From: Nitrospirota bacterium
GTDB lineage: Bacteria; Nitrospirota; UBA9217
Direction: 5' to 3'
DNA: 64,000 bases
NCBI GenBank assembly: GCA_963740085.1
Contig: CAVUCU010000001.1
Location: 512,001 to 576,000 of the forward strand
Part shown: piece after piece, positions 27,591-30,475 of the stretch
How the letters are laid out: every line of letters starts with the position of its first letter
Numbering within the stretch: the first letter of the stretch is position 1
The notes under the pieces: generated by a model
What the model saw: the letters and a program-made list of their open reading frames with translations, nothing else
Database searches by the model: none
Told to the model about the DNA's origin: nothing
Translations under genes and position numbers: made by a program

Positions 27591-28229
27591 TTACTGAAAC
27601 CCCGATTCCTTATTCAAGAAGGGGTTCTCCTCCCGCTCTTCGCCGATGGTGGAAGCGGGGCCGTGGCCGCAATAGACCTTGGTATTGTCCGGCAGGGTCA
27701 TGAGGTTCGTCGTGATCGAGCGGAGCAGGGTCTTCAGGTCTCCGCCCGGAAGGTCAGTCCTGCCGATGGAGCCTGCAAAGAGCGCATCCCCGGTGAATAC
27801 CATCCCTTGTTCCAGCAGGCTGATGCCGCCCGGAGAATGTCCGGGTGTGTGCAGTACCTTGAGAGACACTTCGCCCGCATTGATCATATCCCCGTGCTTC
27901 ACATACCGATCCGCCTGGGGAGAGGATGTGGTATTCATACCGAATGCGCGGGACTGCATCGTCGCTGAGGCCATCATCGGCGCGTCACTTTCGTGAATGA
28001 GCAGCTCTGCACCTGTGGCCTCCTTGAGCGCCTTATTCGCGCCCAGATGATCGAAGTGGCCATGGGTATTTACGATGTATTTGACTTTCAGACCCTTGTC
28101 CTTGATGATCTTCAGGATCTCTTGGGCATCATCACCCGGATCGATGACCACCGCTTCTTTGGTCTTCTCGTCCGCAAGGATAAAGCAGTTCACCTGGAGC
28201 GGGCCTACTACGAGACGAATGAGCACCAT
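27591..28229 (-). CDS. MBL-fold metallo-hydrolase (glyoxalase II-like)
   Basis: THGHFDHLG, HTPGHSPG, FTGDALF and GHG motifs; start 28229 (the longer track ORF runs through a repeat). Confidence 0.92.
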   Translation of the reverse strand: MVLIRLVVGPLQVNCFILADEKTKEAVVIDPGDDAQEILKIIKDKGLKVKYIVNTHGHFDHLGANKALKEATGAELLIHESDAPMMASATMQSRAFGMNTTSSPQADRYVKHGDMINAGEVSLKVLHTPGHSPGGISLLEQGMVFTGDALFAGSIGRTDLPGGDLKTLLRSITTNLMTLPDNTKVYCGHGPASTIGEEREENPFLNKESGFQ

Positions 28230-28274: not shown

Positions 28275-28343
28275 ACACAAAGACAGAGAGATCACACAGA
28301 GAACAATAACGACCTTTACTTTGTGTCTTTGTGCCTCAGTGGC
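28275..28343. repeat. Degenerate 9-bp-period palindromic element overlapping the ogt 3' end
   Basis: ACACAAAGACAGAGAG ... CTTTGTGTCTTTGTGCCTCAGTGGC. Confidence 0.55.
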
Positions 28344-28875
28344 GACCATGTGCTTTTGCTTCCAGCTCCAGGAGTCTCTTCTTCATCCCGATCCCTCCGG
28401 AGAACCCGCCCAGCGTACCTGCTGAGCTGATGACGCGATGTCAGGGAATAATGATCGGCATTGGATTGGCGCCGAGCGCCCCGCCCACCGCCCTTGCTGC
28501 CTTCGCATTCTTTATCCTCTTCGCGATCCAGGCATAGGACCTCGTCTCGCCAAACGGGATCTCCGCTGCCGCCTTCCAGACCGCCTGCTGGAAGGCCGTA
28601 TAATAACGCATATCAAGAGGCAGGTCAAATAAAACGCGTTTGCCCGAGAAGTATTGCTCGAGCAGTTTAACCGTCTTTTCCATTATCTTCGCTCTCCCTC
28701 TCCCCCCGCGGGAGAGGGCCGGGGTGAGGGGGGACGCCGGACTTTTCATTTCCTTTTCAACTGCCTTCTTCTCTTTCTTCGGCAGAACAATCCTGGATAT
28801 CCCCTTTTCTGACACAGCCACTCCCGCCCAGCCAAAAGGGGTCTTAAAATAAATCAGATCCTGATCGAATGGCAT
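28336..28875 (-). CDS. ogt: Methylated-DNA--protein-cysteine methyltransferase, probable selenoprotein (in-frame TGA at the catalytic residue)
   Basis: FQQAVW, IPFGETRSY and ARAVGGALGANPMPIIIP, then TGA (28441-28443), then in-frame HRVISSAGTLGGFSGGIGMKKRLLELE; 179 aa if read through. Confidence 0.85.
28408..28427 (-). promoter_or_regulatory. Candidate bacterial SECIS element
   Basis: GCUCAGC-AGGUAC-GCUGGGC 7-bp hairpin; the loop starts after a 20-nt spacer 3' of the UGA and contains GGU. Confidence 0.7.
28694..28731. repeat. REP-like palindrome inserted in-frame in ogt
   Basis: CCCTCTCCC-CCCGC-GGGAGAGGG-CCGGGGTGAGGGG, encoding PLTPALSRGGRG on the minus strand. Confidence 0.75.
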
Positions 28876-28885
28876 ACCCTGCCCC

Positions 28886-30475
28886 TTAACCCTGGTTCCT
28901 GGACCCTTTTTTTCGCCTCATCATCCCCCATATGAAACTCAGCTCCTCGCTTCTCAAAATCCACATGACGATGACATAGAACAGCACGCTTACTGCCACG
29001 CTGCCGCCGAGCAGTTCGGCTTTATAGAGCGTGTTTCCCGTCGCGCCCCAGACCGGTTGCTTGCTGACCCACCAGCCGATCACGCCCATAACAACGGACG
29101 CGGGAACGATCTTGAGGAGAGAGAGTGCGATCCTTCTGCCGTCCATGCGGCCTATCTTTTTTCTGAGCAGCACGATGAGGATGCTGATATTGAGCGTAGC
29201 CGCGAGCGACGTCGCAAGTGCGAGGCCGCCGTGTTCCATCCTGGTCCAGGAGACGAATGCCGTGCTCAGCACGATGTTCGTGAGCACCGCCAGCACCGCG
29301 ATCTTAACCGGCGTTTTCGTGTCCTGAAGGGCATAGAATGCCTGTGAAACGATCCTGACGCCGGCAAAGGCCCAGAGTCCCACAGCGTAGTACAGGAGTG
29401 CGGCAGAAACGCCAAGCGTGGACACATGATCAAACTGGCCGTGCTCCAGAAGAAGGTTGACGATCGGCACCCGGAGCGTGATGAGGCCGGCCATGGCCGG
29501 AAACATGATGAAGAACACAAGCCTCAGCCCGAACGACAACGTCTCGCGGAACTCCGTGGTCTCGCCCCGCGCTGCCTGGGCCGACATGGTCGGGAGCACT
29601 GCCGTGGCAATGGCGACGCCGAAGATGCCGAGCGGGAAATGGATGAACCGCATGCCGTAGAACAGATAGGTGATGCTTCCCGTTGCGAGGAAGGACGCGA
29701 AGATAGTGCCGATAAAAATGTTGAGCTGGTTCGCAGACGAGCTGAAAAGCACCTGGGCGGCCAGCCGCGCGATCCTGAGTACGCCGGGATGGCTCGGGGA
29801 AAACTGGGGCTTCAGCATCATCCCCTGGCGTTTGAGCCCCGGCAACTGGATCAGGAACTGGCAGAGCCCGCCGAGAACAACACCGACAGCCACACCGAAG
29901 ATCGGCTCTGACATGAACCGCGTGCTCAGCACCACGGCGCTGATGACCATCACGTTCAGCATGACAGGTGATAGCGCGGGAGTAAGAAACGCCCGGAGAG
30001 AATTCAACATGCCCATGGCAAGCGCGGCAAGCCCGATGAACAAGAGATAGGGGAACATGATGCGCGTGAGCATCACCCCGAGGACATACTTGTCATGCTC
30101 CGCCCGATACGCCCAGCCCCAGGCAATGGCTTTTACCACGTAAGGAGCAAGTATGATTCCGAGCCCTGTCAGGATGATCAGGATCACCAGGAGACGGGCA
30201 AAAACCGCGTTCGCCAGGTGGCGGGCGCTTTCCCGGGATTCTTTGGTGAGCGTCTCGGTAAAGACCGGGATGAATGCCGCGGACATCGAACCTTCGGCCA
30301 AAAGCTCTCGCAGAAGGTTCGGAATGCGGTACGCCACGTAGAAGGCATCTGCCGCCAGGCCCGTGCCAAAGGCCCAGGACATGACCATGTCGCGAATATA
30401 CCCCATGACGCGGCTGGCAAGCGTGGCAGCGCCGACAACGCCGGCGGCCTTTGCGACCTTTACCTGCTCAGACAT
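28886..30475 (-). CDS. murJ: Lipid II flippase MurJ/MviN
   Basis: SRVMGYIRD, RIPNLLRELLAEG, PLGIFGVAIAT and FYALQDTKTP motifs; multiple TM helices. Confidence 0.95.
   Translation of the reverse strand: MSEQVKVAKAAGVVGAATLASRVMGYIRDMVMSWAFGTGLAADAFYVAYRIPNLLRELLAEGSMSAAFIPVFTETLTKESRESARHLANAVFARLLVILIILTGLGIILAPYVVKAIAWGWAYRAEHDKYVLGVMLTRIMFPYLLFIGLAALAMGMLNSLRAFLTPALSPVMLNVMVISAVVLSTRFMSEPIFGVAVGVVLGGLCQFLIQLPGLKRQGMMLKPQFSPSHPGVLRIARLAAQVLFSSSANQLNIFIGTIFASFLATGSITYLFYGMRFIHFPLGIFGVAIATAVLPTMSAQAARGETTEFRETLSFGLRLVFFIMFPAMAGLITLRVPIVNLLLEHGQFDHVSTLGVSAALLYYAVGLWAFAGVRIVSQAFYALQDTKTPVKIAVLAVLTNIVLSTAFVSWTRMEHGGLALATSLAATLNISILIVLLRKKIGRMDGRRIALSLLKIVPASVVMGVIGWWVSKQPVWGATGNTLYKAELLGGSVAVSVLFYVIVMWILRSEELSFIWGMMRRKKGSRNQG

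What the first reader, a model, noticed from the sequence alone, without database searches (positions are those of the whole stretch)
28336..28875. Probable selenocysteine-containing O6-methylguanine-DNA methyltransferase (PUHR instead of PCHR)
Seen: the ORF appears to stop at NPMPIIIP, but the TGA (28441-28443) sits exactly at the catalytic Cys of the PCHR motif. The frame continues as an intact Ogt C-terminus (HRVISSAGTLGGFSGGIGMKKRLLELEAKAHGRH). A hairpin GCUCAGC-AGGUAC-GCUGGGC begins 14 nt downstream; its GCAGGU core matches the apical region of the E. coli fdhF SECIS. Established: bacterial Sec insertion needs UGA plus an adjacent 3' SECIS, and Ogt/MGMT is a single-turnover alkyl acceptor, whereas most characterised selenoproteins are redox catalysts. 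Inference: this organism spends one selenium per repaired base and forms Se-methylselenocysteine. That could mean faster repair, a recyclable enzyme or selenium-gated repair. I recall only sporadic in-silico predictions of Sec in this family, so novelty needs a literature check.
Basis: partly seen in the sequence, partly recalled or inferred. Interest (0 to 1): 0.88.

Follow-up and report, generated by a model that had tools for sequence, protein, structure and literature searches.

The report
Selenocysteine-containing DNA alkyl-repair protein Ogt
This soil Nitrospirota bacterium encodes its only O6-alkylguanine DNA repair protein with selenocysteine instead of the usual active-site cysteine, a real but already catalogued kind of selenoprotein that is unusually common in this bacterial family.

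Summary
A minus-strand gene (28875..28336) is a complete Ogt/AGT. Its catalytic codon is TGA (28443..28441, P-U-H-R), and a 7-bp hairpin follows from the 14th base.

The genome has selA, selB, tRNA-Sec and a Sec-type selD, and at least three further TGA-containing molybdoenzyme genes.

In the same Nitrospirota family, 29 genomes carry TGA at this codon, 18 carry TGT/TGC, and 2 are unreadable. Codons after the TGA stay under protein-level selection. The hairpin is paired in 97.7% of cells in Sec forms and 65.9% in Cys forms. Synonymous change in its codons is suppressed only in Sec forms (0.21 vs 0.58; background 0.49 in both). Independent metagenome contigs keep the TGA. A nonsense mutation or sequencing error is therefore excluded.

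It is not new as a kind. A Sec-containing methylated-DNA-protein-cysteine methyltransferase was reported in Carboxydothermus hydrogenoformans in 2005 and has been listed in selenoprotein catalogues since. An engineered human AGT C145U is active in E. coli.

What is added here:
- The Sec form is the majority state across 11 genera of one family.
- It is the sole AGT gene in this genome.
- It has switched back to Cys repeatedly.

The recyclable-enzyme and selenium-gating ideas remain untested.

The parts
28336..28875 (-). ogt gene read through: 179 codons plus the terminal TGA stop. The start ATG at 28875 lies 11 nt after the murJ ORF.
   Evidence: Pfam PF01035 1.9e-33 (114.6 bits, cut-off 27) and PF02870 1.2e-06 (29.4 bits, cut-off 21). 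TIGR00589 1e-32.
28441..28443 (-). In-frame TGA at the catalytic position (P-U-H-R), read as selenocysteine.
   Evidence: It aligns with the Cys of PCHRV in solved methylated-DNA--protein-cysteine methyltransferases. The same codon is TGA in 29 and TGT/TGC in 18 family genomes. No other letter at this place in the contigs of 3 runs that cover it.
28408..28427 (-). Proposed SECIS upper stem-loop: 7-bp stem GCUCAGC/GCUGGGC with apical loop AGGUAC.
   Evidence: fold; 97.7% of cells paired in 25 distinct Sec-form rows; 65.9% in 18 Cys-form rows; synonymous differences 0.21 in these codons against 0.49 elsewhere in Sec forms; 0.58 against 0.49 in Cys forms.
28404..28431 (-). Possible lower extension of the SECIS: 3 further pairs (A1 columns 16-18 with 41-43) around a 2x2 internal loop.
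   Evidence: RNAalifold consensus. These pairs are kept in 27 of 27 rows, with only one-sided changes. Weak evidence.
28336..28338 (-). True stop codon, also TGA. The organism therefore uses TGA as a stop.
   Evidence: Homology ends here.
28357..28596 (-). C-terminal DNA-binding/alkyl-acceptor domain (residues 94-173).
   Evidence: PF01035 match to residues 94-173. Alignment to PDB chains 4wxc and 4bhb.
28612..28851 (-). N-terminal ribonuclease-like domain (residues 9-88), interrupted by a variable linker.
   Evidence: PF02870 match to residues 9-88. Linker variability.
28696..28731 (-). 36-nt G+C-rich palindromic stretch lying in frame in the linker (encodes ..PLTPALSRGGRG..). It matches many unrelated metagenome contigs.
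   Evidence: Depth spike and loose ends on both sides at 28694-28732 in 4 of 4 runs. Present in G000, G003, G020 and G006 but not in G041 or G016. 3 copies at up to 5 mismatches in the own genome.
28886..30475 (-). Upstream neighbour on the same strand: murJ.
   Evidence: PF03023 1.9e-122.
27591..28229 (-). Downstream neighbour on the same strand: metallo-beta-lactamase-fold hydrolase. A longer ORF reaching 28349 would overlap the ogt stop.
   Evidence: PF00753 9.9e-35. ORF list.

Best explanation
The gene encodes a genuine selenoprotein form of the suicide DNA-repair protein O6-alkylguanine-DNA alkyltransferase (Ogt/AGT).

Shown here:
- The UGA sits at the codon that is the alkyl-acceptor Cys in all characterised relatives.
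- The frame downstream of it is under protein-level selection.
- A hairpin 13 nt after the UGA is under RNA-level selection only where the codon is UGA.
- The genome has the complete bacterial Sec system and other UGA-Sec genes.

Inferred:
- SelB.GTP.Sec-tRNA(Sec) binds the hairpin's apical AGGUAC loop on the translating mRNA and inserts Sec at the UGA.
- The selenolate is deprotonated at neutral pH. It attacks the O6-alkyl group of a flipped-out guanine and becomes Se-alkyl-selenocysteine.
- One protein molecule and one selenium atom are therefore spent per lesion.
- Without selenium, ribosomes would stop at the UGA and make an inactive 144-residue fragment.

Within this Nitrospirota family the Sec form is the majority state. 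It has been replaced by Cys several times; some Cys genes still carry the hairpin.
For: Protein family:
- Pfam PF01035 and PF02870 and TIGR00589 all score above their cut-offs.
- U145 aligns with the Cys of PCHRV in solved OGT/AGT chains at E = 6e-30.

Sec machinery in the same genome:
- selA 5e-157 and selB 376.5 bits, above its 242 cut-off and next to selA on contig 3.
- tRNA-SeC(tca) at C3:198420.
- selD with an in-frame TGA at ..SSCAGUAAKF...
- Two fdhA genes and one further molybdopterin enzyme each carry one in-frame TGA followed by a hairpin.

Catalytic codon in family f1 (64 genomes, 49 with an ogt match), read:
- TGA in 29, TGT/TGC in 18, unreadable in 2.
- Sec forms occur in 11 genera, and 5 genera hold both forms.
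- Sec forms differ from the window's protein by up to about 47% of residues (53-58% identity for G072 and G008).

Translation past the UGA in Sec forms: codons +1 to +3 (H, R, V) show no amino-acid differences, with synonymous difference fractions of 0.21, 0.54 and 0.61.

SECIS:
- Stem cells are paired in 97.7% of Sec forms against 65.9% of Cys forms.
- Synonymous difference in hairpin codons is 0.21 (Sec) against 0.58 (Cys). The rest of the 82-codon block gives 0.49 in both groups.
- The remaining variation is A-U to G-U (10 distinct rows) or G-C (1 row), or lies in the loop.
- The loop holds GGU, as do the own fdhA1 hairpin and E. coli fdhF.

Not an assembly error: contigs of runs X2, X5 and X6, from 3 studies, cover 28441-28443 and show no other letter there.

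Sole copy: the only PF01035 match in the genome is this gene.

Chemistry is plausible: human AGT with Sec at position 145 protects ada/ogt-deleted E. coli from MNNG (passages of PMC4150793).
Against: - No selenium incorporation, protein or activity has been shown for this gene or, in the literature I searched, for any natural Sec-Ogt.
- True covariation in the stem is weak. There is one double change among 25 distinct rows, and 220 of 500 shuffles reach the observed covariation score. The RNA evidence is therefore conservation contrast, not compensatory change.
- The amino-acid motif SSAGTLGG itself constrains the sequence.
- The single-sequence fold is no better than shuffles, and no Rfam SECIS family matches.
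- 4 of the 29 Sec-form genomes gave no SelA match. These are G002 (68% complete), G001 (86%), G042 (86%) and G015 (96%). MAG gaps are the likely cause, but this is not shown.
- Some rows look broken or misassembled. G001 and G043 have a frameshift in the N-terminal part, and G004 is frameshifted near the active site.
- No RNA run holding the stretch was listed, so there is no expression evidence.
Confidence: 0.92

Rival explanations
1. A recent nonsense mutation or pseudogene: the TGA simply ends a dead ogt gene, and the downstream frame is decaying.
For: Table 11 gives a 144-aa ORF that lacks the active site. A few relatives do look damaged: frameshifts in G004, G001 and G043.
Against: The TGA is at the same codon in 29 genomes of 11 genera, with up to about 47% protein divergence. 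The codons after it keep their amino acids while synonymous sites vary. The gene is the only AGT homologue in a 98.5%-complete genome. The alternative codon in relatives is always TGT/TGC.
Confidence: 0.02
2. Sequencing or assembly error: the true codon is TGC/TGT.
For: The window comes from a metagenome-assembled genome. Only contigs could be laid, not raw reads.
Against: Contigs from 3 runs of 3 studies cover the codon and show no difference there. 28 other genomes assembled independently have TGA at the same codon.
Confidence: 0.01
3. The UGA is read as Sec, but the protein's main role is not suicide alkyl transfer. Instead it is a redox, thiol-oxidoreductase-like function. Alternatively, selenium supply switches between full-length Ogt and a truncated 144-residue DNA-binding fragment that acts as a damage sensor.
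For: A structure-based screen and a Cys/Sec-pair method both flagged 6-O-methylguanine-DNA methylase as a candidate thiol oxidoreductase (passage of PMC2673044). Most known selenoproteins are redox enzymes (passage of PMC2398784). UGA decoding by SelB is never complete, so a truncated product is expected (established knowledge, recalled).
Against: The Ogt motif segments that align with solved chains are kept: RAVG, G-x-NP, P-U-HRV and LE. Engineered Sec-AGT repairs MNNG damage. No redox partner or second Cys/Sec motif such as UxxC is present around the site. A fragment that lacks the last 35 residues of the fold is unlikely to be stable; this is inference.
Confidence: 0.05

Closest known systems
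Sec-containing methylated-DNA-protein-cysteine methyltransferase of Carboxydothermus hydrogenoformans Z-2901 (CHY0809; ABB14497.1). Reported by Wu et al. 2005 and listed in later selenoprotein catalogues (Zhang & Gladyshev 2007, 2008; reviews of 2022 and 2026).
   Same: Same protein family (PF01035). Sec replaces the active-site alkyl-acceptor Cys, a stem-loop lies immediately after the UGA, and the call was made by Sec/Cys homology. Sources are passages of PMC1287953 and table rows in PMC1976440, PMC2398784, PMC13188914 and PMC9312934.
   Different: The phylum differs: Nitrospirota here, by the record titles of relatives. The 2005 paper said only the C. hydrogenoformans protein had Sec and that it most likely evolved very recently. 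Here the Sec form is the majority in a whole family, at 29 of 47 readable genomes in 11 genera, with deep divergence. I could not fetch CHY0809 itself, so no direct alignment or SECIS comparison with it was made.
Sec-form Ogt genes in Desulfobacterota, found here
   Same: PUHR with TGA at the catalytic codon and a G+C-rich hairpin starting about 12-16 nt after it, in 3 genomes (G497, G541, G474).
   Different: These are sporadic: 3 TGA rows among 136 genomes with a match, out of 151 sampled, with 6 rows not listed. The flanking protein sequences and the hairpin sequences differ, which suggests separate Cys-to-Sec events or old divergence.
Canonical Cys Ogt/Ada-C/human AGT (MGMT). Solved structures include 4wxc, 4bhb, 1eh6 and 1sfe.
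   Same: Two-domain architecture and the segments RAVG, G-x-NP, P-x-HRV and LE aligned over residues 69-173 at E = 6e-30. The single-turnover alkyl-acceptor mechanism is presumed.
   Different: The nucleophile is Sec, encoded by UGA plus a SECIS. The linker holds an in-frame 36-nt repeat-like insertion.
Engineered human AGT C145U (Haruna et al. 2014, PMC4150793)
   Same: Sec at the acceptor position gives a protein that protects ada/ogt-deleted E. coli from MNNG (passages).
   Different: It is artificial: Sec is inserted at UAG through EF-Tu, without a SECIS. That study found N137A kills the Cys form but not the Sec form. The natural Sec forms here still keep that Asn (G-A-N-P).
E. coli fdhF SECIS
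   Same: UGA is followed by a stem-loop whose apical part reads GCAGGU. A GGU in the loop is also found in the own genome's fdhA1 hairpin.
   Different: GGU lies at +22..+24 after the UGA here, against +19..+21 in fdhF and in the own fdhA1. I did not identify a bulged U in the upper stem; that feature of fdhF is recalled, not tested.

Membership tests
O6-alkylguanine-DNA alkyltransferase (Ogt/AGT/MGMT; PF01035 + PF02870; TIGR00589) | C-terminal DNA_binding_1 domain above the curated cut-off | tested here: met
   PF01035 114.6 bits against a cut-off of 27. TIGR00589 112 bits against 46.4.
O6-alkylguanine-DNA alkyltransferase (Ogt/AGT/MGMT; PF01035 + PF02870; TIGR00589) | N-terminal ribonuclease-like domain | tested here: met
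   PF02870 29.4 bits against a cut-off of 21, residues 9-88.
O6-alkylguanine-DNA alkyltransferase (Ogt/AGT/MGMT; PF01035 + PF02870; TIGR00589) | P-C-H-R-V active-site motif with a nucleophile at the Cys position | tested here: met
   P-U-H-R-V. U145 aligns with the Cys of PCHRV in 4wxc and 4bhb. The chalcogen differs: Se for S.
O6-alkylguanine-DNA alkyltransferase (Ogt/AGT/MGMT; PF01035 + PF02870; TIGR00589) | Supporting residues: the Arg of RAVG, the Asn of G-x-N-P, and the Glu of the C-terminal L-E. Their roles and the human numbering are recalled. | tested here: met
   All are present in the window's protein and in the 26 Sec-form rows with an intact frame (G043 has a frameshift in the first part of the block). 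They align to the solved chains.
O6-alkylguanine-DNA alkyltransferase (Ogt/AGT/MGMT; PF01035 + PF02870; TIGR00589) | Stoichiometric alkyl transfer from O6-alkylguanine DNA | not testable with these tools
   Needs purified protein. The only indirect support is engineered hAGT U145.
Bacterial selenoprotein (UGA-Sec decoded by SelB/SECIS) | In-frame UGA aligned with Cys in homologues | tested here: met
   29 TGA against 18 TGT/TGC at the same codon in family f1. Cys in all listed rows of other Nitrospirota families.
Bacterial selenoprotein (UGA-Sec decoded by SelB/SECIS) | Stem-loop immediately 3' of the UGA, conserved where the codon is UGA | tested here: met
   97.7% against 65.9% paired cells. 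Synonymous differences 0.21 against 0.58, with equal background. Compensatory covariation itself is weak, with 1 double change.
Bacterial selenoprotein (UGA-Sec decoded by SelB/SECIS) | selA, selB, selC and selD in the genome | tested here: met
   and 11/43.
Bacterial selenoprotein (UGA-Sec decoded by SelB/SECIS) | Purifying selection on the codons after the UGA | tested here: met
   Codons +1..+3, +12, +13, +16 and +20 have an amino-acid difference of 0.0 with synonymous differences of 0.15-0.61.
Bacterial selenoprotein (UGA-Sec decoded by SelB/SECIS) | Selenium actually incorporated | not testable with these tools
   Needs 75Se labelling or mass spectrometry.
Rfam bacterial SECIS families | Match to a curated covariance model | tested here: not met
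   No SECIS family at E up to 10 in 28300-28500. The only hit was a chance lncRNA match at E = 0.81. Bacterial SECIS elements are gene- and lineage-specific, so this does not bear on function.

The most novel reading that the evidence does not exclude
The Sec form has been kept as the sole Ogt across many genera of a Nitrospirota family, despite costing one selenium atom per repaired base. The boldest reading not excluded is that Sec changes the economics of the enzyme. The Se-alkyl adduct might be removed again, for example by transfer to a thiol or corrinoid acceptor or through selenoxide or selenonium chemistry. That would turn a classic suicide protein into a regenerable, multi-turnover repair enzyme. 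Alternatively, Sec might make the hyper-reactive acceptor site resistant to irreversible oxidation or nitrosation in these organisms' habitat.
Probability: 0.05. Interest if true: 0.85.

Novelty: new member of a known kind. Interest (0 to 1): 0.35.

Why it matters
Ogt/MGMT is the textbook suicide repair protein. A natural selenium version is one of the few selenoproteins whose Sec is a stoichiometric alkyl acceptor rather than a redox catalyst. It has been known from sequence since 2005. In the literature I could search, no natural Sec-Ogt has been expressed or assayed.

This window and its relatives give a good comparative set for that work:
- 29 Sec and 18 Cys orthologues in one family.
- Some Cys genes still carry the relic hairpin, so they are natural U-to-C swaps.

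The data also correct the early view that the Sec form is a one-off, very recent invention. In this lineage it is old, dominant and repeatedly reverted. That makes it a clean case for asking what Sec buys a non-redox nucleophile. In practical terms, gene callers truncate this gene at 144 residues, so these genomes would wrongly appear to lack a functional Ogt.

Tried and rejected
- Rfam scan of 28300-28500 at E up to 10 gave no SECIS family.
- The single-sequence fold z-score was not significant.
- Covariation statistics on the 7-bp stem were not significant: 1 double change, and 220 of 500 shuffles were as high. I therefore rely on the Sec-versus-Cys contrast and the synonymous-site test instead.
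- A gene tree was built from a 219-column DNA block with the catalytic and hairpin codons removed, using 44 rows. G043, G049, G079, G022 and G004 were left out as truncated, masked or frameshifted. The tree is poorly resolved (6 of 41 inner branches starred). It needs 10 Sec/Cys changes on the best tree, but well-supported branches force only 2. I use it only to say that the states are interleaved and that G051 (Cys) sits inside a supported Sec clade.
- Expression: no RNA holder was listed for the stretch, so nothing can be said.
- Read laying used Logan contigs only, not raw reads. X1 does not cover the TGA.
- Phylum scan: one search listed about 150 of its rows and left 258 unlisted. 'TGA only in family f1' holds for the listed rows only.
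- The genome-contig scan gave organism names. Its loci L033-L112 were otherwise not analysed.
- I could not fetch the C. hydrogenoformans gene for direct comparison.
- No structure prediction, complex prediction, the search for homologous proteins, the search of protein representatives or protein-atlas call was made. Family assignment was already unambiguous.
- Literature searches. Papers were seen only as search listings and 'find' passages, never as whole texts. Table 3 of PMC1287953 and all supplements were not seen, and they may list further Sec-Ogt occurrences. My statement that no natural Sec-Ogt has been assayed and that none is described for Nitrospirota rests on those five searches of the held library only.
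Full report
**1. The observation**

On the minus strand an ORF starts at 28875 and, under table 11, stops at a TGA at 28443..28441 after ...GANPMPIIIP. Reading that TGA through gives ...PIIIP-U-HRVISSAGTLGGFSGGIGMKKRLLELEAKAHGRH, followed by a second TGA at 28338..28336.

The read-through protein is a complete two-domain O6-alkylguanine-DNA alkyltransferase:
- PF01035 at 1.9e-33 (114.6 bits, cut-off 27) over residues 94-173.
- PF02870 at 29.4 bits (cut-off 21) over residues 9-88.
- TIGR00589 at 1e-32.

Against solved structures, residues 69-173 align at E = 6e-30 with methylated-DNA--protein-cysteine methyltransferase chains. Residue 145 lies on the Cys of PCHRV.

The hairpin GCUCAGC-AGGUAC-GCUGGGC lies at 28427..28408 and starts at the 14th base after the UGA. 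Taken alone, the region folds no better than shuffled sequence (z = -0.68).

The annotated fdhF reads TGA CAC GGC CCA TCG GTT GCA GGT CTG CAC C, so GCAGGU is shared. It lies one codon further from the UGA here.

**2. The organism can make selenoproteins**

The window is C1:512001-576000 of a 3.46-Mb, 7-contig genome that is 98.5% complete. The nearest named relatives are Nitrospirota metagenome-assembled genomes.

The genome has:
- selA (5e-157).
- selB next to it (376.5 bits, above the cut-off).
- A tRNA-SeC(tca) gene 5 kb further on.
- selD with an in-frame TGA at ..SSCAGUAAKF...

Two formate dehydrogenase alpha genes and a third molybdopterin enzyme each carry one in-frame TGA at ..AR[LI]UHS.., followed by a hairpin. 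TGA is also a normal stop in this organism, since the ogt gene itself ends with one. This is therefore Sec recoding and not a changed genetic code.

The ogt gene is the only PF01035 match in the genome (one search also found a single match).

**3. Relatives: TGA alternates with TGY at this codon**

In the GTDB family that holds the genome, 49 of 64 genomes have an ogt match at E <= 1e-25. I read the catalytic codon in all 49 (with extra regions).
- It is TGA in 29 genomes.
- It is TGT or TGC in 18.
- It is unreadable in 2: G022 ends at a contig end, and G004 is frameshifted.

Sec forms occur in 11 genera. Five genera, including the window's own, hold both forms. Four genera have Cys only. Sec forms are as little as 53-58% identical to the window's protein, so the state is old.

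SelA is found in 55 of the 64 genomes. That covers 25 of the 29 Sec-form genomes and 15 of the 18 Cys-form genomes. The Cys forms are therefore not simply in lineages that lost Sec. The four Sec-form genomes without a SelA match are 68-96% complete.

A tree of the gene, built with the trait's own columns removed, is poorly resolved. It interleaves the two states, with 10 changes on the best tree and at least 2 forced by supported branches. G051 (TGT) sits inside a supported Sec clade. G051 and G005 both still carry the hairpin sequence. The simplest reading is recent Sec-to-Cys reversion.

Outside the family:
- 15 genomes of 10 other Nitrospirota families had matches without TGA.
- In a 401-genome phylum sample, TGA appeared only in family-f1 rows among those listed, with 258 rows not listed.
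- In a 151-genome sample of the phylum of a Desulfobulbales MAG, 3 of 136 genomes with a PF01035 match had a TGA. All three read P-U-H-R with a downstream hairpin of different sequence.

**4. The gene is translated past the UGA, and the hairpin is selected as RNA**

I took an 82-codon block without indels from 26 Sec and 18 Cys genes. For each codon I measured how often two genes with the same amino acid use different codons.

| Codons | Sec forms | Cys forms |
|---|---|---|
| Outside the hairpin | 0.49 | 0.49 |
| Seven hairpin codons (+5 to +11) | 0.21 | 0.58 |

The two sets are thus equally diverged, and synonymous change is suppressed in the hairpin only where the codon is UGA. Codons just after the UGA (H, R, V) never change their amino acid in Sec forms, although their synonymous differences are 0.21-0.61. 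That is the signature of translation through the UGA.

Counted as base pairs, the 7-bp stem is formed in 97.7% of cells in Sec forms (25 distinct rows). In Cys forms the figure is 65.9% (18 rows). Variation in Sec forms is A-U to G-U (10 rows) or G-C (1 row), or it lies in the loop.

Strict covariation is weak: one double change, not above shuffles. The evidence for a SECIS is therefore the conservation contrast, not compensatory change. RNAalifold adds three possible lower pairs. No Rfam family matches, which is expected for lineage-specific bacterial SECIS elements.

**5. Not an error**

Logan contigs from runs X2, X5 and X6, which belong to three studies, cover 28441-28443. They show differences elsewhere but none at the TGA. 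The best holder may be the source sample. The other two are 90-99% alike and look like related strains.

**6. Mechanism**

Shown: a UGA at the acceptor codon, a SECIS-like hairpin under RNA-level selection, a full Sec system, and selection on the downstream frame.

Inferred from established knowledge of SelB/SECIS decoding and of AGT chemistry:
- SelB delivers Sec-tRNA(Sec) to the UGA.
- The selenolate attacks the O6-alkyl group of a flipped-out guanine.
- Se-alkyl-Sec is formed, and the protein is spent.

That a Sec-AGT can work is supported by an engineered human AGT C145U. It protects ada/ogt-deleted E. coli from MNNG, and unlike the Cys form it tolerates loss of Asn137 (passages of PMC4150793). 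The natural Sec forms here keep that Asn. Whether Sec gives faster repair, oxidation resistance, selenium-dependent control or regeneration is open.

**7. What is known**

[quoted passage not shown] It was described with a stem-loop after the UGA and with the comment that it was the only one known and probably very recent (passage of PMC1287953).

The family then appears in several places:
- The Olavius symbiont metagenome: 2 sequences (PMC1976440).
- The GOS survey: 1 sequence against 2,879 Cys homologues (PMC2398784).
- Reviews of 2022 and 2026.

A Cys/Sec-pair screen even flagged the enzyme as a candidate thiol oxidoreductase (PMC2673044).

My searches found no biochemical study of a natural Sec-Ogt and no description of it in Nitrospirota. 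I saw passages only, and supplements were closed.

**8. Verdict**

This is a real selenoprotein gene and a new member of a known kind. The increment over the literature has four parts:
- In one Nitrospirota family the Sec form is the majority.
- It is long-lived there.
- It is the sole Ogt of the genome.
- It has repeatedly reverted to Cys.

Interest is moderate to low for novelty. It is higher as a ready-made natural U/C series for testing what selenium does for a non-redox nucleophile.

Noticed in passing
window 28696-28731 (minus strand, inside the ogt linker): A 36-nt G+C-rich palindromic stretch lies in frame in the interdomain linker and encodes ..PLTPALSRGGRG... In all 4 metagenome runs laid, depth spikes 10- to 100-fold exactly here. 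Many unrelated contigs match only this piece and run on unlike on both sides. It looks like a small repeat element shared by many soil and sediment organisms. It is present in the ogt of G000, G003, G020 and G006 but not of G041 or G016. Only 3 copies at up to 5 mismatches occur in the own genome.
   Followed up: partly
own genome C3:190328-198518 (outside the window): selA, selB and tRNA-SeC lie together within about 8 kb. selD (C1:750805-751725) is itself a selenoprotein gene, with a hairpin GUUCAGC-CCU-GCUGAAC 8 nt after its UGA. That loop has no GGU, unlike the ogt and fdhA hairpins.
   Followed up: partly
own genome C5:408614-416733 and C1:182345-185185 (outside the window): Two tandem-region formate dehydrogenase alpha genes and one further roughly 1059-aa molybdopterin oxidoreductase each have one in-frame TGA at ..AR[LI]UHS.., with downstream hairpins. 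The selenoproteome of this genome was not surveyed further.
   Followed up: partly
window 28336-28349: The longest ORF of the downstream metallo-beta-lactamase-fold gene starts at an ATG at 28349 and overlaps the ogt stop by 14 nt. The Pfam domain begins only after the internal Met at 28229, so the true start is uncertain. murJ, ogt, the MBL-fold gene and guaB all lie head to tail on the minus strand.
   Followed up: no
loci L149 (G004), L030/L141 (G001), L147 (G043): Three relatives have frameshifts inside ogt. G004 is shifted near the active site, and G001 and G043 in the N-terminal half. These may be assembly errors, since two of the genomes have few, long contigs, or real decay of the gene. 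This was not resolved.
   Followed up: no
G015 (96% complete, family f1): This genome carries a Sec-form ogt (TGA plus intact hairpin), but no SelA match at E <= 1e-30 was found in it. It is either a gap in the MAG or a Sec gene stranded without its machinery.
   Followed up: no
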